Translations under genes and position numbers: made by a program
The notes under the pieces: generated by a model
Database searches by the model: none
Told to the model about the DNA's origin: nothing
Seen by the model: only the letters and a program-made list of their open reading frames with translations
From: Malacoraja senta
Lineage: Eukaryota
Assembly (NCBI GenBank): GCA_038087875.1
Contig: CM075992.1
Coordinates: forward strand, 312,001 to 376,000
Reading direction: 5' to 3'
DNA length: 64,000 nucleotides
In this document: positions 1 to 59,633 of the stretch, one piece after another
How the letters are laid out: each line of letters opens with the position of its first letter
Numbering within the stretch: position 1 is the stretch's first letter

Positions 1-1860
1 CTCTCTCTCTATCTCGCTGCGTCCAATCCTTAAACACACAATGCTGCACTGATACTGAAACGATGCTCTTGTGCAGCACGAAATGCCCAGCCTCAGTTCA
101 TGGCTACGCTCGTATCATCTAGCACTTGCTAAAATTAAACCATCTATTAATGGAACCTAGTTACCACGTTACAGATATACCAGAGGCTTGTTATAAGACA
201 ATTCCATTCGCCCAGCAAGATCAGTCCGTCTGTGGGTTCATTTCTCACAAAATAGTAATGGTGGCACATCATTTTGAAGAACGCTGACCCCTCGACGACT
301 GAGGGAATCTGCCCTCAGGGTGTGGGATGCACTCGAGCTGTGACAGCTGAGAGCACCTCCCCGAGATACAATGTGAATCCAGGACTCTGGCTTACCCTCA
401 ATGGCAGCTCCGAGTGAAACAGACACACTTGCTTTACAAGTCGAGACCCTTCTTCAGTCTGAAGAAGGGTCTCGACCCAACATGTCACCCATTCCTTCTC
501 TCTGGAGATGCTCTCTGCCCCGTTGAGTTACTCCAGCTTTTTTGTGTCTATTTTCGGTTTAACCAGCATCTGCAGTTCCTCCCTACACAGACATCTCTGG
601 TCGAAAGGCCATTTGCAAATGGGACGTGTTGTAGTGGGGTAGCGGAGAGTGGAATTGACTCAACAAGAATAGCTGCAGATGTCTATCAAGGTTGAAAAAC
701 GACACAAATTCATTTCCAAAATATGCAATATAGGAAAGGATAGCAACAGGGCAAACCAAGGAACAAATATCAGTTCAGTTTGAGTTTAGTTTATTGTCAC
801 GTGTACTGAGGTACAGTGAAAAGCTTTTGTTGCATGCTATCATAAGTAGAGTGTAGAAATATCTAGGATAAATTGATTATTTCCATGCAGTTTAGTCTGG
901 GGATTTTGAACTGATGGTCAGTGTGGGAGGAACAGGATCGCTGATGGTCGGAAGAGGGGGAAACAGTTTATCTGTGAGTGTTGGACAGATTGAACAAGGC
1001 AATACAGAAGCACTAACGCCACAATTCATCTTTGCTTCAATATAAGATCTGGCACAGATTATCTCTCCCTTCTAACCCCATTCTCCTGCCTTAGCCCATA
1101 AGCCCTGACACCCGTATTAATCAAGAATCTGTCTATCTCTTCCTTTAAAATGTCCACTAACTTGTGGCCTCCACAGCCTTCTGTGGCAACAAAATCCACA
1201 AATTTCACCAGCCTCTGACTAAAGAAATTCCTCCTCATCTCCTTCCTAAAAGAACAAACTTTAACTCTGAGGCTGTGACACTGGTCCTGGACTCTCCCAC
1301 TAGTGGAAACATCCTCTCCACATCCACTCTATCCTAGCCTTTCACTATTCTGTATGTTTTAACCACGTCCCCCCTCATCCTTCTAAACTCCATCTAACAT
1401 CCATTGACCAAACCAGACAGTAATGCACACATTTTTTCAACATCGCCCTATTTGATATGGTGGTACCTTGTCTTCTGTATCTGAATAACTTTTACTGGAA
1501 TAATTTAAGTTTATATATGTTGTTTTCTAAAAATGAATTCACAGTTTGTTCCTTGCCACCTTTTTAAAGCTCTGCAAAGAAATGTAGCTCAAGGAGAAAC
1601 ATTTGAAGTTTATGTTCTCTGATGAATAATTAATAGATTACATTTACCGTTGCTCCTAATCAGAGTTCTGGTAATGGTACAAGAACTTCACATCCCTCTG
1701 ATGAAGACAAACTCCAACATTAATATAGATCCCGGTGCTCCAGATGTCAGGAATCGGAGCTGCAGCCATGTTGGATAATAATGCAATGGAGATTGAGATG
1801 TGATGGATAGTTATCCAGTGATACAGCACAGACACAGTTCCTTCAGTTTAGTTCCTTCAC

Positions 1861-3445: not shown

Positions 3446-3805
3446 TGTGTAGGAAGGAACTGCAAATGCTGGTTTACACTGAAGATAGACACAAAATGCT
3501 GGAGTAACGCAGCGGGACAGGAGAGAAGGAATGGGTGACCTTTCGGGTCGAGACCCTTCTTCAGGGGAGAGGAAGACATAGAGATAAGGAATGAAGTGTG
3601 AAAACAAGATATCAAAGTGGATGGCGATCAAGGAAAATGTAGAATAGATCATTGTTAGCTGGGAGAAGCTGACAACGAAGCAAACAGAGGTAAAATGTAA
3701 TCGGGGGACAGTCGGACTGGTCGGAGAACTAGGATGGGGGGAGGGATGGAGAGGGAGGGAGAGCAAAGGTTACGAAGTTAGATAAGTCAATATTCATACC
3801 GCTGG
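3446..3805 (-). mobile_element. Penelope-like element 3' end (ORF terminus, pLTR, hammerhead-like motif)
   Basis: Minus strand reads (P)SGMNIDLSNF, resembling the PxGxN end of GIY-YIG-bearing PLE ORFs. Then a pyrimidine-rich UTR, CTGAAGAAGGGTCTCGACCCGAAAGGTC, and the terminal ...ccagcatttgcagttccttcctaca. Confidence 0.7.
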
Positions 3806-5287: not shown

Positions 5288-5718
5288 GACTCTGCATCGC
5301 TCTACAACTGACGTTGTGTGGAATATTTCTCAGACCAATGTCGTTGGCTTGAGTTTCCCCAGACAAGCTGAGGATATATCTTCTCAACAAAAGGCCAATC
5401 ATTTGCTGCAGATTTATCAAGGAATACGCTCTGCGGAAACTGTTCCCAGAACGAGAGGGAATGTTTCATAACAACTCCATGAGCAAGGTCATGCCTGCCT
5501 CCCATTGGTGGACGCACTGCTGATCCTGATTGGTCCACTCTTGTTATTGTCTGTGGTTGGTCTTCACACCCAACCTTTCTAACCAATCCAATTGGCTGGG
5601 ACCCAAAACATGTTGTAGCAACAAGGAACTGCAAATGCAGGCATACCAAAAAATCCAAAAGTGCTGGAGGAGCACAGTTTCAAACTGAAGAAGGCCCCCG
5701 ACCCAAAATGTCCCCCAT

Positions 5719-6296
5719 CCATGTTCTCCACAGATGCTGCCTGACCCACTGAGTTACTCCAGCACTCTGTGAAACGTCACCTATCCATGTTCTCCACAGA
5801 TGCTGCCTGACCCGCTGAGTTACTCCAGCACTTTGTGAAACGTCACCTATCCATGTTCTCCACAGATGCTGCCTGACCCACTGAGTTACTCCAGCACTCT
5901 GTGAAACGTCACCTATCCATGTTCTCCACAGATGCTGCCTGACCCGCTGAGTTACTCCAGCACTTTGTGAAACGTCACCTATCCATGTTCTCCACAGATG
6001 CTGCCTGACCCACTGAGTTACTCCAGCACTCTGTGAAACGTCACCTATCCATGTTCTCCACAGATGCTGCCTGACCCACTGAGTTACTCCAGCACTCTGT
6101 GAAACGTCACCTATCCATGTTCTCCACAGATGCTGCCTGACCCGCTGAGTTACTCCAGCACTTTGTGAAACGTCACCTATCCATGTTCTCCACAGATGCT
6201 GCCTGACCCACTGAGTTACTCCAGCACTCTGTGAAACGTCACCTATCCATGTTCTCCACAGATGCTGCCTGACCCGCTGAGTTACTCCAGCACTCT
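5719..6296 (+). repeat. 66-bp tandem array (about 8.8 copies) derived from the Penelope-type element
   Basis: Unit ccatgttctccacagatgctgcctgaccc[a/g]ctgagttactccagcact[c/t]tgtgaaacgtcacctat. Opposite-strand arrays at 7585-7930, 10234-10430, 32552-32740 and 47360-47585. Confidence 0.95.
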
Positions 6297-6638: not shown

Positions 6639-9600
6639 CGCTGGTACAAATCTTCCCCCTTTCCCATCACTTTAGCCGAGTTAAAGTAAAGCCCAGAATG
6701 AATCCTGACCCTCCCTGGTACGTCTCGTTCAACAACACGTTCTGTGAACTCCCTGACCCCATCAGCAATGATGACAACTCAATGAATGACAAGCTGAGTT
6801 CTTGCGACAGCGAGGAGCCAAAGACAGGTCAATATCATTCCCTCAACACAGCCTGACTCAGCCCACAGCTACTCTCATATAATCTCAACCTCACCGCTAA
6901 GACAGATGCCACTTGGCCCATTGTTCCTGTGCCAGCTCTTTGATAGAACACTCACCTTCCTCTTCATGTATTTATCCAACAGGCATTCACCAAGATCATG
7001 GTTAAATCTGACTCCCACAGTCATTCCAGCACTGTATTCCATGTAAACCCTGGGAAAGGTTCTGACTCTCTACCCTGTCCATGCCTCTCACAATGTCATT
7101 TACATCTATCAGGTCTCCCTCTGCCCCTGACACTCCAGAGAAACCAATCCAAGTTTATCCAACCTCTCCCTGTATCTAATAGCCTTTAATCCAGGCCACA
7201 TTCTGGTAAACCTCTTCTGCACTCACTCCAAAGCCTCCTCAGACTTCCTGTAATGGGGGGATCAGAACTGCACGCTTACTCCAAATGCTTATACACAATA
7301 ACTACAAAGTCTTATAAATCTACCACATGATTTTTGACTCTTCTATCCCCTTCTGTAGCCAAAGAACAAGCCTGGCAAGTGAGTTTCTTGTAATATATCA
7401 GTCTGGCTTGTTTGTGAAATGCTGGAGCAACTCAGCGGGTCAGGCAGCATCTGTGGAGCGAAGGAAATGGGCAACCTTTCGGGCTGAAACCCTGAAGGAA
7501 ATAGGCAACGTTTCGGGCCGAAACCCGGAAGGGTTTCGGGCCGAAACGTTGCCTATTTCCTTCGCTCCATAGATGCTGCCGGAACATGGATAGGTGACGT
7601 TTCCCAGAGTGCTGGAGTAACTCAGCGGGTCAGGCAGCATCTGTGGAGAACATGGATAGGTGACGTTTCACAGAGTGCTGGGGTAACTCAGCGGGTCAGG
7701 CAGCATCTGTGGAGAACATGGATAGGTGACGTTTCACAGAGTGCTGGAGTAACTCAGCGGGTCAGGCAGCATCTCTGGAGAACATGGATAGGTGACGTTT
7801 CACAGAGTGCTGGAGTAACTCAGCGGGTCAGGCAGCATCTCTGGAGAACATGGATAGGTGACGTTTCACAGAGTGCTGGAGTAACTCAGCGGGTCAGGCA
7901 GCATCTGTGGAGAACATGGGTAGGTGATGCTTTGGGTTGGAACCGGCTCTGTGGCATGTTTGTCAACACCCAGCCTGTGGATTGGATGTCTGGCACTCCA
8001 GTGGCGTGCTGGGAGAATGCTGCAATGTCAGACACTTCTATGCTCTCGATGCTGAGGTCTAACAAAGCCCTTTCTCCCACTGCAGCAGATATCTCAACCA
8101 GCATCACCAGGAACATACAACAAGGTCATGGCCATTAGGTCATAAGATCATAAGGAATAGGAACAGAATTAGGCCATTCGGTCCATCAAGTCTACTCCAT
8201 TATTCAATCATGGCTGATCTATCTCTCCCTCCTAACCCCATTGCACAGCGGGTATTGCCAGTGCCCCGCAGCATCTCAGAGTCAGGTTCAATCCTGATCT
8301 CGGGCACTGTCTTTCTGGAGTTGGCACGTTCTCCCAGTGACTCTGTGGGTTCCTTGGGTTGCTCCTGTTTATCCCACATCCTAAACATGTGTGGGTTGGT
8401 AGGTTAATCGGCCGTCTGTAAATGGGCAAGTGGGGAGAGTCGAGTTTTTCTAATTATATATTTTTGCACATATTTTATTTACTTTTATTTCACACAGTTT
8501 TTGTGTAATTTATGTTTTGTGCACTGCCTAAATCTATGTGTTTGTGATGCTGCTGCCAGCAGATCACGGTACTTTGCATCTGACTATAAACTCGGCTGAA
8601 GTCAACGTGGATGTGTGGGGAATAAAGTGGGTTTGGGGAGGACTAGTGTAAAGGACTGGTGGGTTAAAGGGCTGTTTCCATGCTGTTGTTCTCGATGATT
8701 CTCTCTTTGATAATTCATTGCTGTTGTGGGATCGCTCAGCTACAACATGTCTGCATAGGTTTGGAAAACAACCAGAGAGATCGGTGAGAGTGTGTTGTAG
8801 TCTGCGCTATGCTTTAGTGGTCGAGTGGCCAAGGGACTGTGTCAATGCCTCTGGTATCTCCGTGAGCTTCTGGCCATGTTCCTCCCCTCCCCCCGCCTCA
8901 CACAGTTCACATCCACTCCCTCACTCACTGGAGGTCATCAGGTCACAAGAACATCAGAAAACACAAGCGAGGTAAGGCCACACGGCCCATCAATACTATC
9001 TCACTATTCAACGTGATCACGGCTGCCGACCCTTGCCTCATCCCCTCCTCTGTCCCTGTTGCCCATACCCCTCAATCCCTTGATCTGTCAAATGTTATCT
9101 GTGTCCTCTTTAACTACTTCAGTGATCCAGCCTCCACACTCACTGGTGTGGACTTCCCAGATCCACCACCATCTGTAGCGAGACGTTCCAATGCTCCCTG
9201 GTTTAAATGACCGGCACCTCACCTGTATCTCTGATCGCCACGGCTCAGCCCCAGTTACACCAGCACCACTTCACACCAGATACAGATCAGTTTAGTCTAG
9301 TTTTTGTCACGTGTACCGAGGTACGGTCAAAAGCTTTTTGTTGCGTGCTATCCAGTCAGCGGGAAGACTGGACATAATTACAATCGAGCTGTCCACAGTG
9401 TACAGATACAGGATAAAGGGAATAAAGTTTAGTGCAATATAAAGTTCAGTAAAGTTCGATTAAAGATAGTCCGAGGGTCTCCAATGAGGTCGATGGGAGG
9501 TCAGGACCACTCTCTAGTTGGTGATAAGATGGTTCAGTCGATATCAAAGTACCATTTGTGACATCATTTCTATCATTCACCGAACCCCACAGAAATAAGA

Positions 9601-9872: not shown

Positions 9873-10139
<267 letters not shown>

Positions 10140-13100
10140 TAATCGTGGAGGTGTTATGGCTCAGCAGGAGATCGTTCAATCCACTGAGTGCAGGAGTTAG
10201 GAAGTCACAGTAAACCTTTACAAAACAATAAAGGACAGAGTGCTGGAGTAACTCAGCGGGTCAGGCAGCATCCCTGGAGAACATGGATAGGTGACGTTTC
10301 ACAGAGTGCTGGAGTAACTCAGCGGGTCAGGCAGCATCTGTGGAGAACATGGATAGGTGACGTTTCACAGAGTGCTGGAGTAACTCAGCGGGTCAGGCAG
10401 CATCCCTGGAGAACATGGATAGGTGACGTTTCAGGTCGGGACCCTTCTTCAGGCTGGTCTTTACAACACAACGTTTTGGCCACAGATGGAATACTGTGCC
10501 CAGTTTTGGGTGGAAAGGTGTGAAGGTTTTTGAGAGAAGGCACAGGAGAAATTTACTTGAACGATTCTAATCACGTAGGATTTTAGCGATATGGATCCCG
10601 TCTTCCTGGGGATCGAGGGGGAATGTGACAGAGGTACTTTAAATCATGACTGTGCAGACAGATTCATTGTTCCTATTGGCTGAAAACAACCAGGTCTCTT
10701 AGAATGAAGATGATTGGATTACAAAAACAAAGTGGACTTTTATGTTTTGAGTTTACTGCCAGGATTAAAAAAAGCAAACCTAAAAAGGAGTTTAATTATG
10801 TTGAATGGAAACAGTGCAGAGGTACATGCAGAGGGAAGAAGTAGGATTGGTTGCAAGCCCTAAGCTAGGATAGCATTGAGGGGCAGAATGGTCTCCTGCT
10901 AAAGAACTCAATTCGTCCCACACTATGTTTTTCCCCGTTGAAATGACTATCTCACTCAGTTTGAGTGCACTGCCCTTGGTGATGGATTAACCTCCTCCTT
11001 TGTTAATCACCTACTCCCCAAACTCCGGTGATTATCTAACAGTAGCCAAGTCAAGCTGACAGTTTTGCACAGATGCTTTTCAAAGCCTTGGGTTACTGAA
11101 GTCACTGTGCTGCCGATGACGTACTTTCAAAGTGTCCCAACTGTGACCACATGGGATAGATGGCGGCCCCATTTACACACAGCATGCTCCAAATACAGCA
11201 GGTGATAACAGTCAAATCCTCTGTTGTTGTGATGTTAGCTGAGGGAAAGGTGTTAGACAGTATAAGGTGAGTAAGGACAGAGAGATGGAGAGATTCAGTA
11301 GGGAAACAGACCATTCGGCCCATCAAGTCATCGACACCAACCACAACCTCCCACTTACACTGACACCCCTTCCCCCCTCCAGATTCTAATCACCTACACA
11401 CCAGAGACAGTTTACAGTGGCAGGAACCACATGCAGTCACAGAGAGAACGTGCAAACTCCACACAGACAGTGCCCAAGGCCAGGATTAAACCCAGGCCAC
11501 TAGCACTGCGAAGCCACTGCTCTATTCGCTGTGCCACTAACCTGGTGTTTCACATCTACCTCAGCACAAAGTAGTTCCCAAGACAAATCCTGAACCCAAC
11601 ACTGACATTCAGAGACAAGGCAGCCCATCCCTGTGGTCACTGCTACCTCTGAGAGTTTCCACTAAAAATCCCAGGCCTTGTCCATTCCAGGCAACTCATC
11701 ACAATTGGACAATTTGGTGAGAACCACATCACAATCTTTTGCAGATAAACCAATATATTCACAACATTAACAACTTTCATAAAACTCTTTGCAGCTTCAT
11801 TTCAACATGTAAACTGGGAGATATATTTTTAAAAAGCCATCATTCTGTGACATTACAGATTCCAAGAGGACTTACCTGGTCAGTGGTGGAGGGAAGCCAT
11901 TCTCTGTCCCCCTATGTCACTTCCTGTGGACAACAGGAAATTCTATTTCATCATTGTGTACAGCAGACAGGAAGTTGTCCTATTCTATTCAGTAACAGGA
12001 ATTGATTTATTCAGTATGTTATGAATAAAAATAAAAATAAACAAAAGTCATCATCATTGAGTGATACAACACGGAAACAGGCCCTTAGGCCCAACTTCCC
12101 CACACAGGCCAACACCAGCCAACATGTTCCATCTACACTCGTCCCTCCTGCCTGCGCTTGGTCCATATCCCTCCAAACCTGTCCTGTCCATGTACCTGTC
12201 TAACTGTTTTTTAAAAGTTGCGATAGTCCTTGCCTCAACTACATCCTCTGGCAGCCCGTTCCGTACACCCACCACCAAAAGTGTGATGATTAAATTGATA
12301 TTAGGGGGACAAATGCCTGTATTCTCCTCACATATATCACCCTTCTGGTCAAAGGCAAAGAAATTAGTTTGAAATGATGTACTGTTCGGGACCAATGTGT
12401 GAATAGACTGGGCAGAAACAGCAGCTTGGAGTTGTACATTAATCCCACACAGGACCCAGTGTCATTCCTCAGAGCACTCTGGCCATGGAGAGGACTTTCT
12501 CTGATCGGTTTGTTACTGTTAGTGACTGGATGAACCCATTGTGTAGCTCACTCCACATTGAGGAGGACATGTTGCTTGTTAATTATGGGCCCAGGGCATT
12601 CTCAGATAGAGGAAGAAGTTAGCAATGCTTGCGAAACCCAAAACATCAGACAGAAACATTCCAACGTCTTGTAATTTCTCATTCGTGATGTTAATTCATC
12701 AGCAACCTCAGGCCTTGAGACATATTGACGATACATCAGCTCCATATTTAGAACTGGGCTTTTATTGTCTCACAAGGTGCCTGGTCCATAATCAGATGCT
12801 GGTGCTCAATATAATAGAAACATAGACAATAGGTGCAGGAGTAGGCCATCCCCAATCAGTACCCCGTTCATCCTTTCTCCCCATATCCCTTAATTCCGTT
12901 AGCCCTAAGAGCTAAATCGAACTCTCTCTTGAATACATCCAGTGAATTGGCCTCCACAGCCGTCTGTGGCAGAGAATTCCACAGATTCACAAGATTTTTT
13001 TCTGGGTGTAAAAGTTTTTCCTCATCTCAGTCTTAAATGACCGACCCCTTATTCTGAAACTGTTACCCCTGGTTCTGGACTCCCCCAACATGGGGAACAT

Positions 13101-16808: not shown

Positions 16809-19034
<2,226 letters not shown>

Positions 19035-27361: not shown

Positions 27362-27561
27362 NNNNNNNNNNNNNNNNNNNNNNNNNNNNNNNNNNNNNNN
27401 NNNNNNNNNNNNNNNNNNNNNNNNNNNNNNNNNNNNNNNNNNNNNNNNNNNNNNNNNNNNNNNNNNNNNNNNNNNNNNNNNNNNNNNNNNNNNNNNNNNN
27501 NNNNNNNNNNNNNNNNNNNNNNNNNNNNNNNNNNNNNNNNNNNNNNNNNNNNNNNNNNNNN
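27362..27561. other. Assembly gap (200 N)
   Basis: Run of exactly 200 N; a CR1 copy runs into its right edge. Confidence 0.99.
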
Positions 27562-31505: not shown

Positions 31506-32300
31506 CCCTAGCGCAATGTCAGTGGTTATGAGAAGTCAGGAGAATGGGGTTGAGAGGGAAAGGTAGATCAGCCATGATTGAATGGTGTAGACGTGATGGG
31601 CCGAATGGCCTCGTACTGCTCCTATCACTTATGAAGACAGGTTTCAAGCAGCATCTCCCTGGGTCACCAGGACCCACATTTCCTGCTGCTGCAACTCCTG
31701 CACAGGCAGTTCACAAACCAGCAGCCAACTCTGCTGGCAGCAGCTCAACCAGCAGCTAAAGTTGTGAAAGTTGCCAGAACTACTTCATCCTGCAGTGAAT
31801 AATCATCGAGGTGACCTGGACCCAATGACTGCCCCAACAGCTGGCTCTATGCCACATGGCGCAATGAAGGGAGAGGCTGATGCAAGATAGCAGTAAAATG
31901 AAAATAAATATATTTTTGCTGAGTTCTGTAACTAAATTCTATTTGATGGGGGAAAAAAAGCAAAAAATCATCGATTACAGGATGTCAGTTCAGTTATTTA
32001 GTTTATTGTCACGTGTACCGATGTACTGTGAAAAGCTTTTGTTGCGTGCTAACCAGTCAGCGGAAAGACCATCCAGGATTACAATCGAGCCATTTACAGT
32101 GTATTTACAGATACATGATAAGGGAATAACGTTTAGTGCCAGTAAACCCAGCAAAGTCCGATCAAGGATAGTCCAAGGATCACCAATGAGGTAGATAGTA
32201 GTTCAGGACTGCTCTCTAGCTGTGGTAGGATGGTTCAGTTTAGCCCATTCCCAAGATCAAGTTGCTTCCATTACTGGCCAAGCCTGGCACGAGAACTTAC

Positions 32301-32396
32301 CGCAAATGCCGTCATTCACGTGGGAAGAGGGAATGTACTCGGATCTGTGGCCAGCGTTCGAGCAGTGGTAGCTGCCGTTTGGACAGGCCGATGTTC
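32301..32396 (-). CDS. PRKCSH: Glucosidase II beta subunit, 3rd coding exon (96 nt)
   Basis: ttttgccAG|(G)[31 protein letters not shown]|gtaagt; phases agree with the flanking exons. Confidence 0.93.
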
Positions 32397-33958
32397 CTGG
32401 CAAAAAGAAAGAAGATCAGGCATTTCCATGGCGACCTTCATGCAAGTACCTCAGCGAGCCTTCCCGTGTGACCGGCAGAGGGGGCAGACTGTGCAGGAGC
32501 TGGGCGCACAGAGACTGTTGGCGGAGTGATTGAATGGCCAAACCGACATTAGGACAGTGCTGGAATAACTCAGCGGGTCAGGCAGCATCTCTGGAGAACA
32601 TGGATAGGTGACGTATCAAAGAGTGCTGGAGTAACTCAGCGGGTCAGGCAGCATCTCTGGAGAACATGGATAGGTGACGTATCAAAGAGTGCTGGAGTAA
32701 CTCAGCGGGTCAGGCAGCATCTGTGGAGAACATGAATAATGGACATTTTGTGTCGAGACCCTTCAGACGGAAAAAGGGTCTCAACCTGAAACACCACATC
32801 AAAGTTCTCCAGGGATGCTGCCTGACCCGCTGAGTTACTCCAGCACTTTGTCCCTTTTGTGTTTTAACCAGCATCCCCACTGTAAAAGAGGAGACTCACA
32901 GTTCTATCACACAACTATCGACCGCGCCACAAGGAACAGGCAGGTTTAATATCCGATACATTAACAAATCTGCAGGCAAATTAAATTTGCACTTGAAAGT
33001 AAGCGACAGTCTTACATTCAGACTTCTGGCCAAAAATAAATCTGCAAACAACACTTGCAAGAACACCAGAAACAGGTTTAAAGATAGCACGTCTGGAAGG
33101 AACTTGAAACAATTCAAGCTGCAATTTTAAAAAAAACTATTTTAAAATTACATGACATACCACGATTACTTAAATGTGAATCTTAAGTTTCACATGTAAC
33201 CCAGCTGCAAATTTTTGTGAAATCATTTGCCCCATACTCAGTGAACTTAAACTGATAGTTCTTGTTAGGTTTTCTGGAAAGATCATTGATACACTTACCC
33301 AATCATCTGCTTTACCTGGTAAATATATTTCACCAGACGTTGGATCATTGTTTGCAAATCTGACACTTACTGTCTCTGCCCTCGGGTGTTTTAGAAATTA
33401 GTTCCACAATGGCCCACGGAGAATGAAACAGGCAAGTGCACATAACTTGGTCAAAAAATTATTTACAGAAATTCCAACCACTAATTGTTATAGCGTACTG
33501 GCCTTGGAAAATGCCTGTGTTCCAGTCCATTAACAATAGGCCTCATTACAGCAGTTCGAGAAAAGGAAATTCTCTTTCACAGAATTCACTACCCAGAAAT
33601 TTGAGGTATGGAATAAAGTTTGTTCTCATGGAACCCTCATGAGAAAAGTGCAACTAAAGCATCTGAAGGGTCTCGACCCAAAACGTCACCCATTCCTTCT
33701 CTCAACCTGGAGAGGAATGGGTGACGTTTCGGGTCAAGACCCTTATTCACACTCAAACTTCCCATCCCGTTCCTGTCCCACAGAGCTACTCCAGTAGTTC
33801 GTGTCGTTTTTTAGGGTTAATAATGAATGACCAAGGACACTTCAATTATCCACTGGACATGTTTTGTGTGCAAATGTCAGGCTGTGGGGCAGATTCTCAG
33901 ATGCTACCTGCAATAATACAATGCGCCACCAGGAGGTGCCGCAAGAGGCAGCACTAAC

Positions 33959-34075
33959 CTGGTTCATCTGAGCCGTCCCTGCAGTCACAGTAATCATCGT
34001 TCACCTCGTGGAATGGAATAGTCTTGGAGCCGTCCAAACACGTAAATGGTATGTTCTCCTCATAAAAGTGTCGAT
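33959..34075 (-). CDS. PRKCSH: Glucosidase II beta subunit, 2nd coding exon (117 nt, LDLa-like)
   Basis: cttgtAG|(N)[38 protein letters not shown]|gttagt. Confidence 0.94.
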
Positions 34076-35779
34076 CTACAAGGACAGGAAGAGTTATGGG
34101 TCAAAATCTGTTCTTTTTCCCTTGTAAATAATGTTTCTGCAGCAGATCGATTGTGAGAGTCAAAGCACTGAAGGTCAAGGTTTAATGCTACTTTGTCACA
34201 TGTACCTGGGTATAGTGAAATACCTTTTGTACATGCAGTTCAGTATAAACCTTATAATACACAGGCACAACATACTCAAATACAAGAGTGTAGGTAAAGA
34301 AGATCACACACAGTACAGCAGGATTGTCAAATTTCCAGCACCATTTTCTACGATTTAAACCAAAAGTTTTTTAAAATGTAGTCTTATGAGCATGAGCATA
34401 AAGGCCCATTGTCCTGGCCAAGTATTTTTACTTTCCTTAAACCTATTGCTAAATATCTGCATTCAGCACATAGGCAGGGAATTCCACTATGTGTTCAGGA
34501 TAGGGAATTTTTAAAAATTGCCATTCTTAAGAGTAAACGGTAGAGATCACCGGGCAACAAGTTTGCGTCACTCACAAGAGTAAATGAGCACAAATGTTCA
34601 GCAGAGGACTTGTCGCTTGAGAGCCCCCTGTATGCCCTGCATCTTTCACAACTCCAGGAAAGCCCAAGTGCTGATCCTCTGCTGATGAAATACCAACTCC
34701 ACCACAAACAAGGAGCATGCTGGCTTTAAGCAAATATCCCACAATCAAATAATATTCAGGTAAATTCCAAAAAAGCCACAAAGCTCTGTCTCATTTCTCA
34801 GCGATTCACAGCATCACTATTCCCTTTCAACATCTGCCTTCCCTTCACTTACTCAGCTGCATTTTAACTACATTGTGGACATCTTTCCCGCTTCACACTC
34901 CTGTGATCGCTGAGGCTTGAAAGCCCAGTTTTGTTCTCAGCAAGAATCTAATTGCACCAACAGTGGCACTTCACAGTTGCAGTACCTACACCAACGGCCG
35001 GCCGAGCACCTCATGTGCAGCTTGATAAATCCCCAGATTAACCAGGTCCAGATACCAGCAACTGCATCCTCGTAGTTGCCAACATGCCTCATAAAGAGCA
35101 AACTAACTATCACCACACTGGCAACTTACCCAGTGTTGTTTACCTGGAACTGAGATTGAGATACTTTTAAGATTAAGTGCCTCACACTGAAGTACTGTGG
35201 CTGTTACACATGCATCAGATAATTAACATGTTGAAAAGGCTCCAAAACAAAGTCAAGTCCTGGAAACAGAAACATGGTCCTGGAGTGGGATTGGAGCTGC
35301 TGCACAGTTTAACATGATCATGACTGATCATCAAAGTTCACTGCCCAGTTCCAGCTTTCTCCCTTTAACGCTCAAGCCCTCCATCTTTGTTTGGAATACA
35401 TTTAGTAGTTTAGGAAAGGATTCCACGGGTTCACCACTGTCTGGGAGAAGAAACTTCTCATTCCTTCGTAAATAGAGTCCCATTGTCCCAAAAGGCAGGA
35501 CCCCTGTTCTAGAATCACCAGCCACGCAAACATTCTTCCGGCATCTAAAATATCCAGTCCTTGTGGAATTTTGTATATTTCTGAGAATCTATGATCAACA
35601 TAGGGTGTGTTAGCAGACAATTGAAAGAACATTATTTTTCATCAACAGTGCCTGTATTAAGGCACATGTTGGAATCTGGTGCAAAACACAAACTGCTGGA
35701 GCAACTCAGCAGGTCGGACAGCATTTGTGGAGAGGACAGGAATTGTCAGCATTTTGGGTTTGACCCTGCATCAGGGTGA

Positions 35780-39317: not shown

Positions 39318-39528
39318 GTATATCAGAGCCAGCCTCGCCCTCTTCCCCAGTACCACGGGTCACCCACCGCTCGTTCAGAAGTGAGCGATATTTAGTGGAA
39401 TTCTCTGCCACAGAAGGCGGTGGAGGCCAATTCACTGAATGTTTTCAAGAGAGTTAGATTTAGCTCTTTGGCCTAACGGAATTAAGGGATATGGGCAGAA
39501 AGCAGGAACGGGGTACTGATTTCAGATG

Positions 39529-39732
39529 TGTAGGAAAGAACTGCAGATGCTGGTTTAAATCGAAGGTAGACAAAAAATGCTGGAGTAACTCAGCGGGACA
39601 GGCAGCATCTCTGCAGAGAAGGAATGGGTGACGTTTCGGGTCGAGACCCTTCTTCAGACTGAAGTAACGTCACCCATTCCTTCTCTCCAGAGATGCTACC
39701 TGTCCTGCTGAGTTACTCCAGCTTTTAGTATC
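39529..39732. mobile_element. Penelope-derived palindromic element inserted in a CR1 tail, 15-bp TSD
   Basis: tactgatt(t/c)agatg-type duplication at 39514-39528 and 39733-39747 (1 mismatch); intact hammerhead-like core on the minus strand at 39630-39657. Confidence 0.75.
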
Positions 39733-41560
39733 TACTGATTTTAGATGATCAACCATGATCATATTGAATGGTGGTGCTGGCTCGAAGGTCGGGGTATGCG
39801 GGGGGAGTGAACTTTATCATTGCCCTTATGTGGCGGCTATATGCATACCATGCATATGCAAGCAAAGAATTTCACTTGTGACAATAAAATCTTCATTCAT
39901 TCAGAATTGGGTCATTCAGCCCATCGAGTCTACTCCGACATTCAATCATGGCGGATCTGTCTCTCCATCCCAACTGCATTCTCCTGCCTTCTCCCCACAG
40001 CCACAACCCGTGACACCCGTACGAATCAAAAATCTATTTAGTTGCGTTTATTGTCAAGTGTACCGAGGTACAGTGAAAGCTTTTGTTGCATGCTAACCAG
40101 TCAACAGAAAAACAATACATGATTACAATCGAATCGTCCATAGTATACAGATACATCTACCTCTGCCTTAAAAATATCCATTGACTTGGCCTCCACAGAG
40201 GTCTGTAGCAATGGCCTCCACAGATTCATCACCCTCTGACTAAAGAAATTGCTCATCTCCTTCCCAAAGGAAGGTCCTTTAATTCTGAAGCTGTGCCCTC
40301 TGGTCCCAGACTCTCCCACTAGTGGAAACATCCTCTCCACATCCACTCTATCCAGGCCTTTCACTATTTGTGTGGTGTGTTGTCTCACATGACACGTATG
40401 GTCACAGTGACACGGATAGAGTGAAGTCTTTCTATTCAGGGTAGAGGATTCTAAAACTAGAGGGCACAGGCTTAAGGTGAGGGGAGAGATTTAGGCTTTA
40501 GAGATACAGCATGGAAACGGGCCCTTTGCCCATCGATCACCCTGTTCACGAACACTATCCTATACACTAGGGACAATTTACAGAGCCAATTAACCTACAA
40601 ACCCACACGCTTCTGGCATGTGGGGGTAGAAACCGGAGCACCTGGAGGAAACCCACGCTGTCACAGGGAGAATGTACTAACTCCAAACGGACAGCACCTG
40701 AGGTCAGAATCGAAGCCAGGTCTGGCACTGATAGGCAGCAGTTATACCCGCCACCCCACTGTTCTGCATCACTGTGCCTTCCCTAAATGCACTTCTGCAC
40801 CAAACACCATCAATCTCAGTTTATAATTGTCACATGTATGGCATGTTGTTGCACAGGATATATATGGTCATGGTGACATAGATAAAGTGAACACTCACAG
40901 TCTTTTTCCTGAGGTTGAGGATTCTAAAACTAGAGGGCACAGGCTTAGGGGGAGAGATTTAAGAGGGACCCCAGTCTGTATCTGGAACGAGCTGCCAGAG
41001 GAAGCTATAGAAGCAGATACGATTACAATTAGGTTTAAGATAATTGGACAAATATGGACAGCAAGGGTTTGGAGGTATCTGAGCCAAATGCAAACAAATG
41101 GGACAGTGTGCCAACAGTTAGCATGGACAGGATGGGCCAAATGGCCTGTAGCCACGCTGAAGCATTCCATGAGATGCAGAGAAAAACTTTGCATTCTCCC
41201 AGTCAGGTCAGACCACCCATGACAGACCGGGCGGGCAGTGCTCAGAGAAATGCATCAAGAACAAGGACAACAGTGTGTAACTCTTGCTCTCGACTTGTTC
41301 TGAGTTTTCACCCCAAGTTGTTGCAATTCTCAATTTAAAACTTTGCCTTAAAAGTTTGATCAGGGAAAGATTTTGAGAACAGAAAATGCAATAGAGGTCA
41401 ATGTAAAACAGATGGAAATATATGGGGGCGATGTAATTACAGGAACACATCCCAGATCGGATTTTGAGAACATTTTGGATTTTAAGGACAACATTTGTGA
41501 GCGTTTATATTAATAAATTTGTTACGAGGGATTCACAGAAAAACTCAGCTGTTCAGACAA

Positions 41561-41974
41561 AGATGCTGGAGAAACTCAGCGGGTGAGGCAGCATCTATGG
41601 GGCGAAATAGGCAATGTTTCGGGTCGAGACCCTTCTTCAGACTGATGTGAGGGTGGGGCGGGAAAAAGAAAGGAAGAGGCGGAGACAGTGGGCTGAGGGA
41701 GAGCTGAGAAGGGGAGGAGAAAGGGACTACCTGAAATTAGAGAAGTTAGGGTAGTCCCTGCTTTCTCCTCCCCTTATCAGCTCTCCCTCAGCCCAATGTC
41801 TCCGCCTCTTCCTTTCTTCTTCCCACCCCCCCACCCTCACATCAGTCGGAAGAAGGGTCTCGACCCGAAATGTTGCCTATTTCCTTCGCTCCATAGATGC
41901 TGCCTCACCCGCTGAGTTTCTCCAGCATTTTTGTCTACCTTCTATTTTCAAACATCTGCAGTTCCTTCTTAAAA
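41561..41974. mobile_element. Non-autonomous Penelope-derived palindromic element with 15-bp TSD
   Basis: About 170-bp inverted arms around a spacer that reads DFSNFR* on the minus strand; flanked by the direct repeat cagctgttcagacaa (41546-41560, 41975-41989). Confidence 0.75.
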
Positions 41975-43229
41975 CAGCTGTTCAGACAACTTCTGTGACA
42001 AGAGAAAATGCAGGGTTTGAGGTCTAGGCCTTGTACAGAACTGGGAAAGAGAGAAACAGAAAGAAGATGTGTCATGACCTGAAACGTCACCCATTCCTTC
42101 TTCTCCAGAGATGCCGCCTGTCCCGTTGAGTTACTCCAGCATTTTGTGTCCATCTATGAGAGAAACACGTTAGTTTTGGCAGCAGACTATGTGACGTGAT
42201 AGACAAGCACGAGGATTCCACTGGGAGCATGAAACTGAAATAATTAACGTAGATAAAGTCAGATGAAGTTTCTTTGATCAGTATTGTGTGCAATTCGGGT
42301 CACCCCATTGCAGGAAGGATGTGGAGGCTTTGGAAAGGGTGCGGAAGTTTACCAGGATGATGCCTGGTTACTCCAGCACATTGTCTTTTATTGTGAACCA
42401 GCATCTGCAATTCCTTGTGACACCAGGTGACTGTCAAAGGTGGAGGATAGACGTTAGCCTCACCAGGAAGGCCCACAGCCCACAAACATTTATTGTCTCG
42501 TTTTCACACCTTACCCTTCCTTATCTCTGTCTCCCTCTCCCCTCACTTTCAGTCTGAAGAAGGGTCTCGACCCGAAACATTACCTATTCCTTCTATCCAG
42601 AGATGCTACCTGTCTTGATGAGTTACTCCAGCATTTTATGTCTATCTTCATTGTAGACTGTTCATTCACCAGTTCGCTTGTGTTAACATACATTTCACTA
42701 GAATGCTGCCTGCATGAGGGAGTATTAACTACAAAAAGGTGTACAAACATGGATTGGTGTACAAACTGGAGCATCAGAGTCTGATGGGCACCTGATAGAC
42801 GTTTATAGAATACGTATATGTGAGAGGCATAGATAGGGTAGACAGTCTGAACTTTTGTTTTTCCGGGGTGGAAATTCAATGCCGAGAGGCCATAGGTTTA
42901 AAAATTAAATGTGGGGCAAGTTTAAATTTTGTAAAATTAAACTTGTTCAAACCAGAGCACAAGAAAGTGCTGGAGGAACTCAGTGGGTCGGGCAGCATCT
43001 GTGGAGGCAGAGGGACAGTCGAACCTGCTACACTCACCGTCTCCAAAGATGTTGCCCGACCCGCTGAGTACCTCCAGCTGTTTGTGTTACACTGCGGTTT
43101 ACAGCATCTGCGGCTCACAAACCACACGTCGAACCTTGACCGCTCCTAGCCTGTCCCCTCGCTCACCGCTCTTTCAGTCTGCGCATCGGTCAATAACGTA
43201 TTTTCACTTCTAACCCCACCACCCCCCAG

Positions 43230-46485: not shown

Positions 46486-46945
46486 TTAGTTTAGAGATAC
46501 AGCGCTGAAACAGGCCCTTCGGCCCACCGGGTCCCTGCCGCCCAGCGATCCCCGCACATTAATACTATCCTACGCACACTGGTCTAGCGACTATTTTACA
46601 TTAATACCAAGCCAATTAACCCCACCCCCTATCAGTCTGAAGAAGGGTTTCGGCCCGAAACGTTGCCTATTTCCTTCGCTCCATAGATGCTGCTGCACCC
46701 GCTGAGTTTCTCCAGCATTTTTGTGTACCTTCGATTTTCCAGCATCTGCAGTTCCTTCTTTAACACAATTAACCTACAAACCTGTACGTCTTTGGAGTGT
46801 GGGAGGAAACCGTAGATCTCAGAAAACAAACCACACGGTCACAGGGAGAATGTACAAACTCCGTAGACAGCACCCGTAGTCGGGATCGAACCAGGGTCTC
46901 TGGCGCTGTGGGGCAGCAACTCTATCGCTGCGCCACCGTGCCGCC
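46486..46945 (-). mobile_element. HE1/V-SINE-type SINE interrupted by a Penelope-derived insert (46622-46765)
   Basis: The SINE resumes after the insert; 9-bp duplication caattaacc at 46613-46621 and 46766-46774. Confidence 0.8.
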
Positions 46946-48140
46946 CAGCTCCAGCACTCCACTTGCTTTCAACATGTGCTTGTTTAAACGGATCATGACA
47001 TCTTCCTTGGTAATCCTTCCCCAGTCTGAGGGTGTTGGCAAGAGGGAACCTGGTTCATCCTCCCTTCCTTAATTGTGGGAAGGGGTGGAGGTGGGGGTTG
47101 GCAGCAACTAGCCATGGAGATGAACCTCACCTCCAGGTCAGTTACTAGCTAGCAGAAGTGGCCTTGTGATGGAGCCCATGATCAGAAGGTATGCAGAACA
47201 CTGGGGAAGGTCAAGGCCATGTGGACAAAGCCACCCAGTGATGAAAGGCCAGACAACAACATTTCAACAATGATTACCTGCTGATGAGCAAGTTGACAGC
47301 ATATCCAGGAGACGAGGAGTTCAACAGTGCTCTAAATCAAACATTCTCATCAATTAAAGATCTCTGGAGAACATGGATAGGTGACGTTTCACAGAGTGCT
47401 GGAGTAACTCAGCGGGTCAGGCAGCATCTCTGGAGAACATGGATAGGTGACGTTTCACAGAGTGCTGGAGTAACTCAGCGGGTCAGGCAGCATCTGTGGA
47501 GAACATGGATAGGTGACGTTTCACAGTGCTGGAGTAACTCAGCGGGTCAGGCAGCATCTGTGGAGAACATGGATAGGTGACGTTTCAGGTCGGGATCATT
47601 CTTCAGACTTGAAACGTCACCTATCCACGTTCCCTAGGGATGCTGCCTGCCCCGCTGAGTTACTCCAGCACTTTGTACCTTTTCTTTGTAAACCAGCAAC
47701 TGCAGTTCCCTGAGTCTACATTCTCGTCAGTATATTGTTTTGCTTCACTGCTGTGGCCTGTCCATGGACTCCGCGAGTTCACACCATGTCCACCTTCCCT
47801 CTGTACAAACCTCAGGCACAGAACTGCCCCTCACTGTTTTTAAAATGACGCAAACATATTTTATAGATTTAAATAAGTGCAAAGATGCGAAATAAATCAA
47901 TTTCAGGTTTATTTATATAAACAAATCTGTACAAAATAAGGATCAGGTAATAGTTGAATAAAAACATTTACAATAAGTTTGTAATAAAATATGTTTTGTA
48001 AGAAAATACTTCTATAAATCAGTTATATTTACAGTAATGTGCTCTTCGAACCAAATGATTTTGGACTAACAAATGGAAAAGGTTGTTTAAATAGTGAGCA
48101 GTCCCTCACCAAACATCTGCTGCTGGACTGACTGACAGTA

Positions 48141-50785: not shown

Positions 50786-51530
50786 TGAAGATAGACACAA
50801 ATGCTGGAGTAACTCAGTGAACAGAATCACCAAATGCTGGAGTAACTCGGTGAAGAGAGACACAAATGCCAGAGTAACTCAGTGAAGAGAGACACAAAAT
50901 TCTGGAGTAACTCAGTGAAGAGAGACACCAAATGCTGGAGTAACAGTGCAGATAGACACAAATGCCGGAGTAACTCAGTGAAGATAGACACAAATGCTGG
51001 AGTAACTCAGTGAACAGAATCACCAAATGCTGGAGTAACTCGGTGAAGAGAGACACCAAATGCTGGAGTTACCCAGTGAAGAGAGACACCAAATGCTGGA
51101 GTAACTCAGTGAACAGAATCACCAAATGCTGGAGTAACTCAGTGAAGAGAGACACAAATGCCGGAGTAACTCAGTGAAGAGAGACACAAATGCCGGAGTA
51201 ACTCAGTGAAGAGAGACACAAAATGCTGGAGTAACTCAGTGAAGAGAGACAGAAATGCTGGAGTAACTCAGTGAAGATAGACACAAAATGCTGGAGTAAC
51301 TCAGTGAAGAGAGACAGAAATGCTGGAGTAACTCAGTGAAGATAGACACAAAATGCTGGAGTAACTCAGTGAAGAGAGACACAAATGCCGGAGTAACTCA
51401 GTGAAGAGAGACACAAAATGCTGGAGTAACTCAGTGAAGAGAGACAGAAATGCTGGAGTAACTCAGTGAAGATAGACACAAAATGCTGGAGTAACTCAGT
51501 GAAGATAGACACAAAATGCTGGAGTAACGC
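50786..51530 (+). repeat. 32-33-bp tandem array derived from the Penelope-type element arm
   Basis: Unit gaagagagacac(a)aatgctggagtaactcagt, about 23 copies, in EPOR intron 7. Confidence 0.93.
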
Positions 51531-51652
51531 AGTGCGACCGGCAGCAACTCTGGAGAAAAGGAATGTGTACTATGCTTCATTGTTGGCTGAGGGGAAGGTG
51601 ACAATGAGGCATACAATCAGGAGGGGGAGAGGGAGAGGGAGAGGGAGAGGGA

Positions 51653-56747: not shown

Positions 56748-59633
56748 CTGGTGAGAGACGTTAGGTTTAGCTTAGTTTACAGATACAGCGCGGGTGGGAG
56801 GTGGGGGAGGGGGGAGGTGGGAGGGGATGTGTGAGGTAGGTGGGGTAGGAGGGAGTGGGAGTGGGGGGGAGGTAGAGGTGGGTTGGGAGGTGGGGTTTGG
56901 GTGGGGGGGGGCGTGGGATTATCTGGGTGTCAGGGAACAGCTCCCATTGTTTTCAATGACAAGCAGGCCTTGGGTTACACAGAACAGTCCAGCAGAGGAA
57001 CAGGCCCTTCGGCCCATAATGTCCATGCCGAACATGATGCCAAGATATACTAATCTCCTCTGCCTGCACGTGATCCATATCCCTCCATTTCCCTGCATAT
57101 CCATGTGCCTGTCTAAAAGCCTCTTAAACGCCCCCACCCCACCCTGTGTAAACACAATCTTGCCCCACATATCTCCTTTAAACTTTGCCCTGAAAGCGAT
57201 GCCCACTAATAATTGACAGTTCCACCCTGCGGAAAAGTTTCTGGCCGTCTACATAAGAGTTCTGTTCCTAAAAGAATTCTCCATCAATCAGAGATTCCTT
57301 GTTTGTATCATGACACGTATCAATAATTCAATCGTCTGAAGGAGGGTCTCGACCTGAAACGTCACCAATCCTTCTCTCCAGAGATGCTGCCTGTCCCGCT
57401 GAGTTACCCCAGCATTTTGTGTCTATCTTCGGAATACAGTACATACTGTATCCACATAGGATCTACTGAATCCCACGACAGAAAGCCCCTTTTACCCACA
57501 TTCTCACCAATCATAACCAACGTGCAGATAAGGCCATTTAGTGCATCTGACCTTGGAGTTGTTATTGAGTTATGGATGAACCTTCTCGTGAGGCTGCTGG
57601 TGAGTCGCCAGCGGTGACAGGCTGTTTGCAAAAACCAACGTGGGCATGAAGGAGCCACATACTTGTCAATAAACACCGTTAATATCTTATTATTATGTCA
57701 CCATCTTGAGAACTGCTTTAAAAAATTTGCAGAGTCAGGTTTACGTAGTCAAGTTTGTTGTTGTTTACTGATATAGGGTGGAACTGAAGAGTGGTACAGA
57801 TCTAGCACGAGGCAAAGTGGGCCAAATGGCCCGACCACACTGGAATCATGCTCTGAATCCCCACTATACAAGGACCTGTATCTACTGTGTACCTGGACCT
57901 GTTTCCTCATCCACAACACTAGATAACGCAGATTCTGGGAACATTGGGTGCAGTCCCAGGGGAGATTGTACCGACCACAGCTCTTTGTGCCTCTCTGAAT
58001 GGGAGGTGGGGAGCAGATCATCCAGAGACGCAAACATGAAATCAATTAATTACAACGCTGGCCACACTTGTCAGGGAGCCCTTATCCAGAGACTCCCATG
58101 CCCATTCCCAGTCATCAACGAGACACATGTGTGGTTAGATAAGGCCCACTGCTAACATCACTGCTGGTAATTGTGACAAACAAGCTCTGCTCACAGTTTG
58201 TTCTGCTTACAGTTAATTGTGTTATCTTGCTGCAGCAGAGAGAAAACATTCTGAAAACCATGCGTTTGTGTTTTTGCAAATTTTTGCATTTGTTTTCTTG
58301 TTCGAGTCCAGCTGAGGATGTTGCAATCCTGGTCTCCAAAACTACATGCTAAATTATTAATAAATGTACAGCTGACGTGACAAAACCATTAAAGTTGTTG
58401 GATGGCACAGGCACTATGTAAATGCAATGTGGAGTTAACATATAGGTGTAACTGATAGGGTAGTGAGCATTTAAAAGCAAGCCTTATTGAAAATAAATAA
58501 AACAACAGCCTCTAACAAAGGAACTTTGCTCAGCTGGTACATTAGCAATTTTAATCCCTGGAACATTGGACTGGCACTTCAGGGCTGGAAGGGTATGGTC
58601 ATAGAGAGATAGTATGGAAACAGGCCCTTCGGCCCAACTAGCCCACCCCGAACAACATGTCCCAGCTACACTGCCCGCGTTTGGCCCACAGCCCTCCAAA
58701 CCTGTCCTATCCATGTACCTGTCTAACTGTTTCTTAAACATTGGGGTAATCCCAGCCTCAACCACCTCCTCCGGCAGCTCGTTCCATACACCCACCACCC
58801 TCTGTGTGGAAAGGTTACCCCTTAGATTCCTATTAAATCTTTTCCCCTTCACCTTAAACATCAGCTTTTTCATTAAAGTCTCCAGACCCATATTCCCATT
58901 GTGCTATTTATTGTAACAGAGGTCTGGCTTGGGACCAGACAAACAAAAAGTCGTCCCCTACAGGTGGGCCTCAGGTGGTCCACAATTCATGAAGTAATTC
59001 TGACCGGGGCCATTTCTAGGTTAGAACAACCAGAGGCAGCAGCAAGCAAACTGCAGACTGATCGTATAAAACCATCCGTGTTATTTGTCGATTGAGGAAT
59101 GGACATTGGCCACGATATCAAAGAGCTAGCAGGGGGTGGGGGGCTGAATGGCCTTGTTGGATTCAGTGTGAGTCACAACAAAGTAATATTTCTCCGGCAA
59201 CAGCAACACAAACTAACAACACAGTCCTCCCATCGAAAGTATTGATCACTAATTCAAAACATTCTGCAAAGCAATTAAAGAGAAGGGCACCACTTCAGGC
59301 CACTCTCCCTCCCACATGTTGTAAAACACGAGAGAAATCAGTCACTGTGCAAAGTTAGACCCTCTAGTTACAAGTTCAATGCTTACCAGGGGCAATATCA
59401 CCCATATAAACAGGGTATGTTTCACAGTAAAACAGCATGGTGCTCTCTTTAAACTAAAGCACCCTGCCTTCTTCTGCCTGTGCAACATCTCCAACAATTA
59501 ACAGCAATGCTGTTTGTATTTTCACCTGCGACAATTCCAGTCATGGCCAGCAAACATCAAGGCCCCTTGAGAAGGGTTTTTATCATGAGGCTTACATGGG
59601 CTAAGGATCTAAGGTCTACAATAACAAACTCAC

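What the first reader, a model, noticed from the sequence alone, without database searches (positions are those of the whole stretch)
39529..39732. High-copy Penelope-derived mini-elements carrying a minimal hammerhead-ribozyme-like core
Seen: the motif CTGAAGA-A-GGGT(ctcg)ACCC-GAAA-CGTC recurs about 15 times in 64 kb. Best copies are 39630-39657(-), 13321-13348(+) and 46637-46664(+); degenerate ones lie near 459, 3536, 7505, 10424, 33663, 41612, 41846, 42554, 47577 and 57336. A second subfamily reads GGGT(ttcg)GCCC-GAAA-CGTT, so the hairpin pairing is kept (U-A to U.G) while the loop and cleavage triplet vary (GUC/GUU). At 3446-3805 the motif lies in sense downstream of a PLE-like ORF end. 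Known: the hammerhead core is CUGANGA-stem II-GAAA-stem III-NUH, and Penelope-like elements carry minimal type I hammerheads with tiny palindromic stem III proposed to act as dimers; here stem III is the palindrome ACGU. Inference: an elasmobranch retrozyme-like non-autonomous family has placed ribozyme-like cores in introns of all four genes. Caveat: helix I shows only about 2 clear base pairs.
Basis: partly seen in the sequence, partly recalled or inferred. Interest (0 to 1): 0.72.

Follow-up and report, generated by a model that had tools for sequence, protein, structure and literature searches.

The report
Penelope retrotransposon stubs with minimal hammerheads
These short repeats are cut-off end pieces of a recently active Penelope-type jumping gene in a cartilaginous fish and carry an already described kind of tiny self-cutting RNA motif; they were copied from uncut RNA and break off just in front of the motif, which likely marks where the element's RNA begins.

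Summary
In detail: 12 near-exact copies in the window, none expected by chance. The motif is the known minimal type I hammerhead of Penelope-like elements (Cervera and De la Pena 2014). I found the parent in the own genome: a young element with an intact RT + GIY-YIG ORF of 1,226-1,290 aa and the motif in both terminal repeats. The minis are not retrozymes. They are target-site-duplicated, 5'-truncated ends of such elements, about 690,000 tail pieces by extrapolation. In the young family, 53% of exact copies are lost over seven bases just before the core, but only 3.6% across the predicted cut site, so the copied RNA was almost never cleaved. Helix I has only 2 bp, no compensatory pair was found, and folding favours another hairpin; cleavage is untested. 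The 5' edge is likely a transcription start (inferred). This scan has noted the same family, edge and 66-bp arrays in other genomes. Verdict: new member of a known kind, modest interest.

The parts
39514..39528 (.). left target-site duplication of the flagged insertion
   Evidence: 15 bp, repeated with 1 mismatch at 39733-39747
39529..39662 (-). pLTR stub: 5 nt before the core, hammerhead core, about 65 nt downstream and the 36-nt Penelope 'tail'
   Evidence: tail defined on full-length copies
39630..39657 (-). minimal hammerhead core: CUGAAGA, extra A, 4-bp stem II, GAAA, palindromic ACGU, predicted cut after GUC
   Evidence: exact match; passes strict descriptor
39659..39732 (+). inverted second arm, joined at the short palindrome before the core; stem II missing
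   Evidence: the pair folds into a long hairpin, -70.7 kcal/mol for the stretch folded
39733..39747 (.). right target-site duplication
46620..46766 (+). stub of the young family with intact core at 46637-46664
   Evidence: 99.3% identical to full-length element L112
13317..13434 (+). stub of the young family, intact core at 13321-13348, between exons of the ELAV-like gene
3453..3805 (-). longer 3' fragment of an older family: last ORF codons, 3' UTR, core with one change, tail
41554..41973 (.). inverted pair of stubs that include part of the 3' UTR; cores at 41613-41640(-) and 41847-41874(+), both mutated
42493..42655 (+). stub with mutated core at 42554
57334..57431 (+). stub with mutated core at 57336
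430..580 (.). inverted pair of stubs joined at the palindrome; core at 459 mutated
33660..33753 (.). short inverted pair between two PRKCSH exons
5685..6296 (+). old stub followed by a 9-copy array of a 66-bp unit (cleavage half of the core plus downstream part; no CUGAAGA, no stem II)
10235..10458 (-). intact core at 10425-10452 followed by 66-bp units
7417..7937 (-). 66-bp array joined to a fold-back cassette of young-family pieces
   Evidence: 217 of 219 bases identical to a locus on another contig, L061
47360..47609 (-). mutated core at 47579 followed by 66-bp units
32556..32764 (-). old stub followed by 66-bp units

Best explanation
The motif is the minimal type I hammerhead in the terminal repeat (pLTR) of autonomous Neptune-type Penelope-like retrotransposons, and the minis are short insertions of that pLTR end, copied from uncut RNA, likely by the parent's own reverse transcriptase running from the tail to a barrier just before the core that is probably the RNA's 5' end. 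Shown: the parent with its intact ORF and two hammerheads, fixed 3' ends, a 5' edge at -6 to +1 (C3 of the core = 0), target-site duplications, and almost no copies starting at the cut site. Inferred: reverse transcription starts at the two tail ends (from the published Anolis Poseidon result); transcription starts at the initiator-like TCAGT; run-off cDNAs of about 95 or 130 nt are inserted as they are, often after fold-back at short palindromes. Predicted, untested: a lone stub does not cleave, and any cleavage needs a dimer or the element's protein, is rare, and is not required for transposition.
For: Parent: 91 scored matches to a whale-shark RT + GIY-YIG protein; all 30 fetched differ by 0-8 of 1,359 nt, and the listed stop is the ORF's own end. 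Of 6 stretches fetched, 4 show pLTR(core)-ORF-pLTR(core), one of them also with an inverted copy; a fifth is a partial tandem. The core starts 116 nt after the stop. In older families 22 of 30 GIY-YIG loci have the motif downstream. 3' ends: 37 of 73 young copies end at +90..95 and 28 of 73 at +120..131, like the two RT start sites that bound the tail in PMC11167929. TSDs: 14 of 27 non-inverted short copies share 10 or more nt between their flanks, against 1 of 702 mismatched pairs. 5' edge: 56 of 191 evenly sampled copies start at -5..-1 and 4 of 191 at +25..29. Genome-wide exact counts for the young family: 22,994 reach +1, 10,691 reach -6, 8,847 reach -11. Across the cut site 25,258 fall to 24,347. 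Between three family representatives the core region is 91-100% identical, the ORF end 67-74% and the UTR 36-66%.
Against: The 5' edge is a zone, not one base: only 2,290 of the 12,303 copies lost end exactly at -3. A cap-derived G is not clear: G at -4 in 38 of 100 listed against 27% expected (p = 0.012), but only 1 of 11 rows with a clear TSD has a lone extra G. The initiator consensus is short and recalled, and no transcription start was measured. Full-length copies carry sequence upstream of -3, so they need read-through or a template jump. Among dispersed copies the core is no better kept than the tail (0.92 against 0.94) and no compensatory pair exists at subfamily level, so catalysis is not shown to be what is conserved.
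Confidence: 0.72

Rival explanations
1. The 5' edge is not the RNA's start. The RT stalls or folds back at the TCAG-T-CTGA palindrome and at the hairpins of the hammerhead region on a longer RNA. Identity as Penelope stubs is unchanged.
For: 28 of the 56 copies that start at -5..-1 have an inverted partner, many joined at this palindrome. A second cluster at +10..15 is mostly inverted, 12 of 13. The edge is spread over about 7 nt. PMC3846280 (passages) reads palindromes at inverted junctions as self-priming.
Against: 15 of the 19 young copies starting at -6..-1 have no inverted partner. Density falls abruptly upstream of -6, whereas a stall would be expected on the 3' side of a hairpin (general RT behaviour, own knowledge).
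Confidence: 0.25
2. In this lineage the hammerhead is vestigial. The sequence is kept as promoter or RT-recognition signal and no longer cleaves in any context. This can hold together with the best explanation.
For: Helix I is 2 bp in all six copies examined. The designed dimer scores -6 to -7 kcal/mol against -21 to -27 for the best dimer folds. An alternative hairpin pairs the 5' strand of stem II with the 3' strand of helix I. No footprint of cleavage.
Against: All invariant core bases are kept in each family representative while the UTRs diverge. A 2-bp helix I is described for the D. virilis Penelope hammerhead (PMC4209133). The Anolis hammerhead cleaves only with the element's protein and also leaves no trace in RNA-seq (PMC11167929). 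The folding had no positive control and ignores the core's non-canonical contacts.
Confidence: 0.3
3. The minis are a separate non-autonomous retrozyme-like family that spreads through self-cleaved, circularised RNA.
For: Very high copy number and short length; retrozymes are reported to derive from pLTRs and one chondrichthyan genome holds some (bioRxiv 10.64898/2026.07.22.740005, parts 1-2 of 5).
Against: No tandem of units that each hold a whole core was seen in the window or in 600 kb sampled evenly. Copy ends are not in register with the cut site. Young minis match an intact ORF-bearing parent at 99% and grade into longer fragments: 12 of 73 reach more than 330 nt upstream.
Confidence: 0.06
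4. The edge is a 3' splice site (pyrimidine tract plus CAG just before the core), as in D. virilis Penelope, and splicing supplies a longer helix I.
For: All families have a pyrimidine-rich UTR ending in CAG one base before the core. In D. virilis the intron ends at the 5' end of helix I (PMC4209133).
Against: TSDs often abut the edge, leaving no room for a captured exon, and the upstream flanks of edge copies are unrelated to each other and mostly to the element. Ends are spread over -6..+7 rather than fixed at -1.
Confidence: 0.07

Closest known systems
Minimal hammerheads (min-HHR) in pLTRs of metazoan Penelope-like elements, Cervera and De la Pena 2014 (PMC4209133; parts 1-2 of 4 read, supplement PDF searched by words)
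   Same: Type I core, unpaired base between 9 and 10.1, G10.1-C11.1, palindromic 15.2-16.2 with no loop III, located in both pLTRs, mostly dispersed as single or opposite-strand copies of truncated elements.
   Different: Helix II is 4 bp (7-8 in S. mansoni) and helix I is 2 bp (4-5 there; 2 in D. virilis). About 107,000 intact cores by extrapolation against about 4,000 and 9,000 reported for coelacanth and Xenopus with a different descriptor. No cartilaginous fish is named in the parts read or found by word search in the supplement (its figures are not searchable).
Neptune-clade EN+ Penelope-like elements (PMC8557442, passages read)
   Same: Single ORF with RT, CX4CX2C linker and C-terminal GIY-YIG; partial tandems, inverted 5'-truncated copy, 36-nt tail, heavy 5' truncation.
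   Different: ORF of 1,226-1,290 aa with a Pro/Thr-rich repeat region; most listed relatives are 700-1,000 aa. Neptune versus Nematis was not resolved by a tree.
Poseidon element of Anolis carolinensis, PAc (PMC11167929; parts 1-2 of 4 read)
   Same: Two preferred 3' ends bounding the tail; uncut RNA is the main template; no ends at the hammerhead cut site.
   Different: In PAc the ORF starts inside the hammerhead; here the first Met lies about 165 nt after the core. A fixed 5' edge before the core is not described in the parts read.
Non-LTR retrozymes (bioRxiv 10.64898/2026.07.22.740005; parts 1-2 of 5 read)
   Same: Non-coding, pLTR-derived, hammerhead-related, very abundant.
   Different: Retrozymes are tandem units each with a whole hammerhead. 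The minis are single or inverted, and the 66-bp tandem unit lacks half the core.

Membership tests
min-HHR of metazoan PLEs | CUGANGA ... GAAA ... UH core in type I order | tested here: met
   48 of 134 sampled copies keep all 11 invariant bases and H17 (sample pre-filtered at 70% core identity)
min-HHR of metazoan PLEs | unpaired base between 9 and 10.1, G10.1-C11.1, palindromic 15.2-16.2 | tested here: met
   A in 129 of 134; G-C in 95 of 134; C-G in 77 of 134, most losses being CpG transitions
min-HHR of metazoan PLEs | located in both pLTRs of a PLE | tested here: met
   L111, L112, L113, L116
min-HHR of metazoan PLEs | helix I of 4-5 bp (2 bp in the D. virilis variant) | tested here: inconclusive
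   2 bp only in six copies of four families; third and fourth pairs broken in 115 and 114 of 134. Fits the D. virilis variant, not the usual form.
min-HHR of metazoan PLEs | covariation of the helices among families | tested here: not met
   0-3 two-sided changes per pair in 134 copies; subfamily changes are one-sided. One genome only, so power is low.
min-HHR of metazoan PLEs | self-cleavage as dimer or with protein | not testable with these tools
   needs an in vitro assay
EN+ Penelope-like elements (Neptune/Nematis type) | one ORF with RT and C-terminal GIY-YIG | tested here: met
   RVT_1 E 6.6e-6 and GIY-YIG E 1.5e-3, both below the curated cut-off; 68% identity over 451 aa to a whale-shark protein with the same domains; 896 relatives
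EN+ Penelope-like elements (Neptune/Nematis type) | CX2-5CxxC linker between RT and EN | tested here: met
   CX4CX2C in the translation
EN+ Penelope-like elements (Neptune/Nematis type) | pLTR partial tandems, inverted 5' copy, 30-40 bp tail | tested here: met
EN+ Penelope-like elements (Neptune/Nematis type) | RT phylogeny places it in Neptune rather than Nematis | not tested
   no clade-labelled references were at hand
Non-LTR retrozymes | tandem repeats with at least two consecutive whole hammerheads | tested here: not met
   no such array in the window or in 600 kb sampled evenly; the 66-bp units lack CUGAAGA and stem II
Non-LTR retrozymes | no coding parent with the same sequence | tested here: not met
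   99.3% identity to the pLTR of an intact element
Non-LTR retrozymes | circular RNA monomers | not testable with these tools
   only assembled contigs were available

The most novel reading that the evidence does not exclude
In this lineage the Penelope transcript starts three bases before the hammerhead, which is why helix I has shrunk to 2 bp. The RT starts internally at the tail of the 5' pLTR and makes a retrovirus-like 'strong-stop' cDNA that is inserted on its own hundreds of thousands of times. The cap-proximal ribozyme acts as a protein-gated switch that removes the capped 31-nt leader. A 66-bp unit holding only the cleavage half has become a parasite that spreads by landing in register inside older stubs.
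Probability: 0.15. Interest if true: 0.62.

Novelty: new member of a known kind. Interest (0 to 1): 0.28.

Why it matters
The role of hammerheads in Penelope elements and the steps of Penelope retrotransposition are still open. This genome holds a very young family with an intact ORF and more than 30,000 exact copies of a 33-nt tail probe, whose ends can be read base by base. They show in vivo what one in vitro study found for a lizard element: copying starts at the tail and uses uncut RNA. They add a fixed stop just before the ribozyme, testable by CAGE and by an RT assay. The ribozyme class itself is not new, and the intronic copies are unlikely to affect the host genes.

Tried and rejected
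Rfam: no hammerhead family matched in the window (67 matches at E up to 5, mostly miRNA-like hairpins) or in an intact pLTR (0 matches); minimal forms are evidently outside those models. A degenerate core pattern found nothing in viral contigs, so I have no cross-species hammerhead alignment. No RNA holder was listed among 24 runs; this says nothing on expression. Contigs of three guessed-RNA runs (one flagged probably DNA) and one other run showed no GT..AG joint among the 15 of 122 joints shown; contigs cannot show starts or splicing in such a repeat. A type III reading with a cut site just before the core was rejected by eye: stem III would open with a mismatch. A cap-derived G was tested and is inconclusive. 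For the 66-bp unit, a rod-like circle is not supported (z -1.5 and -0.3), and a cis pseudo-dimer of head plus unit costs about 10 kcal/mol more than the best fold. The ORF-end comparison for family C (L007) was dropped because the stop was misplaced. Lunse et al. on dimeric cleavage is not held; I saw only its title and the summary in PMC6765202 (passages). Paper searches for a description in cartilaginous fishes: 1 paper, 'shark' only as a simile; 2 genome papers, listing only; 0. The library lacks most subscription papers and Repbase/Dfam, and the bioRxiv supplements, which name the one chondrichthyan species, are closed.

Full report
Observation. The motif is real. Pieces of the family make up 37 segments and 5,276 bp of the window. 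The flagged stretch 39529-39732 is one insertion between 15-bp target-site duplications. It consists of a minus-strand arm with the whole core and a plus-strand arm without stem II, joined at the short palindrome before the core. Below, positions count from C3 of CUGAAGA = 0; the predicted cut lies between +27 and +28.

Abundance. The window is G000:C16:312001-376000 of a 1.94-Gb genome. One 31-mer of the older subfamily has 13,276 exact matches, and a 33-mer from the young subfamily has 30,259. In 60 evenly spaced 10-kb stretches a profile of the downstream part finds 213 hits in 599 kb, and 33 copies pass a strict core descriptor. That extrapolates to about 690,000 and 107,000; both arms of inverted pairs are counted. 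The host is a cartilaginous fish by inference: the nearest named relative of the ORF end is a whale-shark protein.

The parent. Sequence upstream of 3537(-) continues, in other copies, into a GIY-YIG domain, and 22 of 30 such loci have the motif downstream. Searching with the whale-shark protein gave 91 scored matches; the 30 fetched differ by 0-8 of 1,359 nt. Of six longer stretches, four show core-ORF-core with ORFs of 1,226-1,290 aa from the first Met, one of them with an extra inverted copy; a fifth is a partial tandem and the sixth is 5'-truncated. [quoted passage not shown] This is the architecture of Neptune/Nematis-type EN+ Penelope-like elements in PMC8557442 (passages). The window copy at 46620-46766 is 99.3% identical to this parent.

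The hammerhead. It has every diagnostic of the min-HHR in PMC4209133: the extra base after A9, G10.1-C11.1 and the palindromic 15.2-16.2. Across three family representatives the core region is 91-100% identical, while ORF ends are 67-74% and UTRs 36-66% identical (single copies; the fourth family's ORF value was dropped). Against function: helix I has 2 bp in all six copies examined, its pairing probability is at most 0.02, and an alternative hairpin usually wins; the designed dimer is 15-21 kcal/mol worse than the best dimer folds (no positive control). In 134 sampled copies two-sided changes number 0-3 per pair, the core is no better kept than the tail (0.92 against 0.94), and most losses are CpG transitions, as in neutral decay. 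In the flagged insertion the inverted arm buries the cut site in a long hairpin.

How the minis arise. I examined 73 young copies from 70 loci: the first 30 of the 100 listed and 40 of the other 70, leaving out most members of two tandem segmental clusters and the last 8. Their 3' ends fall at +90..95 (37) or +120..131 (28), 36 nt apart. Their 5' ends fall at -6..-1 (19), 0..+7 (13), +10..15 (13, of which 12 inverted), +19 to +30 (6), or further upstream (22). Of 27 non-inverted short copies, 14 share 10-17 nt between their flanks, against 1 of 702 mismatched pairs, so they are independent insertions. In the even sample, 191 of 213 hits could be aligned; 56 start at -5..-1 and 4 at +25..29, with a few copies counted twice. 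Exact genome-wide counts agree: 53.5% are lost between +1 and -6, 17% over the next five bases, and 3.6% over the three bases spanning the cut site, which includes mutation. So the templates were almost never cut. This fits PMC11167929: internal RT starts at the two tail ends, unprocessed RNA as main substrate, and protein-assisted cleavage.

The 5' edge. TCAGTCT at -5..+1 fits the initiator consensus (recalled) with its A at -3. Internal promoters with an initiator are reported for D. virilis Penelope (PMC2377424, passages) and an initiator-like TCACT for a rotifer pLTR (PMC3846280, passages). A start at -3 would also explain why helix I has so little 5' strand. Against this, only 2,290 of 12,303 lost copies end exactly at -3, and the cap-G test is inconclusive. 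Fold-back at the palindrome explains part of the cluster. I put the start-site step at about even odds; the identity of the elements and the uncut template are much firmer.

Retrozyme reading. It fails the defining test: no tandem of whole-core units was seen, the ends are not in register with the cut site, and a coding parent exists. The nearest thing is a 66-bp tandem unit with only the cleavage half, in five arrays here and in seven other loci on four more contigs, but in none of the 600 kb even sample and in 1 of 20 further stretches. Complete units differ by 0-4 bases while their heads are old and diverged. Contigs across the junction occur in all four runs laid, two with at least 31 letters on each side. 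This looks like later insertion in register into older stubs; the mechanism is untested.

Host genes. Exons of an ELAV-like gene (9873-10139, 16809-17123, +), PRKCSH (32260-32415, 33957-34100, -) and EPOR (55171-55434, -) were found among 201 ORFs scanned; no fourth gene was identified. Copies lie in both orientations, as expected at this density.

Novelty. Hammerheads in fish Neptune, Poseidon and Xena pLTRs and their dispersed truncated copies were described in 2014. My searches found no description for cartilaginous fishes, within the library's limits. Earlier unreviewed notes of this scan report the same family, the same 5' edge and the 66-bp arrays in other genomes; my readings were written down before I saw them. 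Verdict: new member of a known kind; interest 0.28.

Noticed in passing
window 5706-6296, 7582-7927, 10235-10433, 32556-32738, 47360-47587; L016, L018, L061, L074, L213, L219, L295: A homogeneous 66-bp tandem unit (cleavage half of the hammerhead plus downstream part) sits in register inside older, diverged stubs on five contigs; one array-plus-fold-back cassette is 99% identical between window 7417-7937 and L061.
   Followed up: partly
L111-L113, L116 (ORF, e.g. L112:2933-6649): The young element's ORF is 1,226-1,290 aa, with a variable Pro/Thr-rich repeat region in its first half, longer than most listed relatives.
   Followed up: no
L018, L193, L214 (5' junctions): Some copies carry a short duplicated piece of the core directly upstream, which would lengthen helix I to 3-4 bp by accident.
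   Followed up: no
window 50786-51534: A second minisatellite (33/65-bp period) contains a piece of the same Penelope tail.
   Followed up: no
window 60717-61035: Degenerate CCCTAA telomere-like array about 373 kb from the contig start.
   Followed up: no
window 17942-18775 (+) and 26563-28428 (-): Two other reverse-transcriptase ORF fragments (Pfam RVT_1), not matching the Penelope references; probably LINEs.
   Followed up: no
L106, about 250 nt after the ORF end: The sequence after this insertion reads like an intronless coding stretch, possibly a processed pseudogene; not translated or searched.
   Followed up: no
G000:C1 3.870-3.893 Mb and 4.002-4.035 Mb: Tandem segmental repeats of about 2.0-2.45 kb, each unit holding one young stub.
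   Followed up: no
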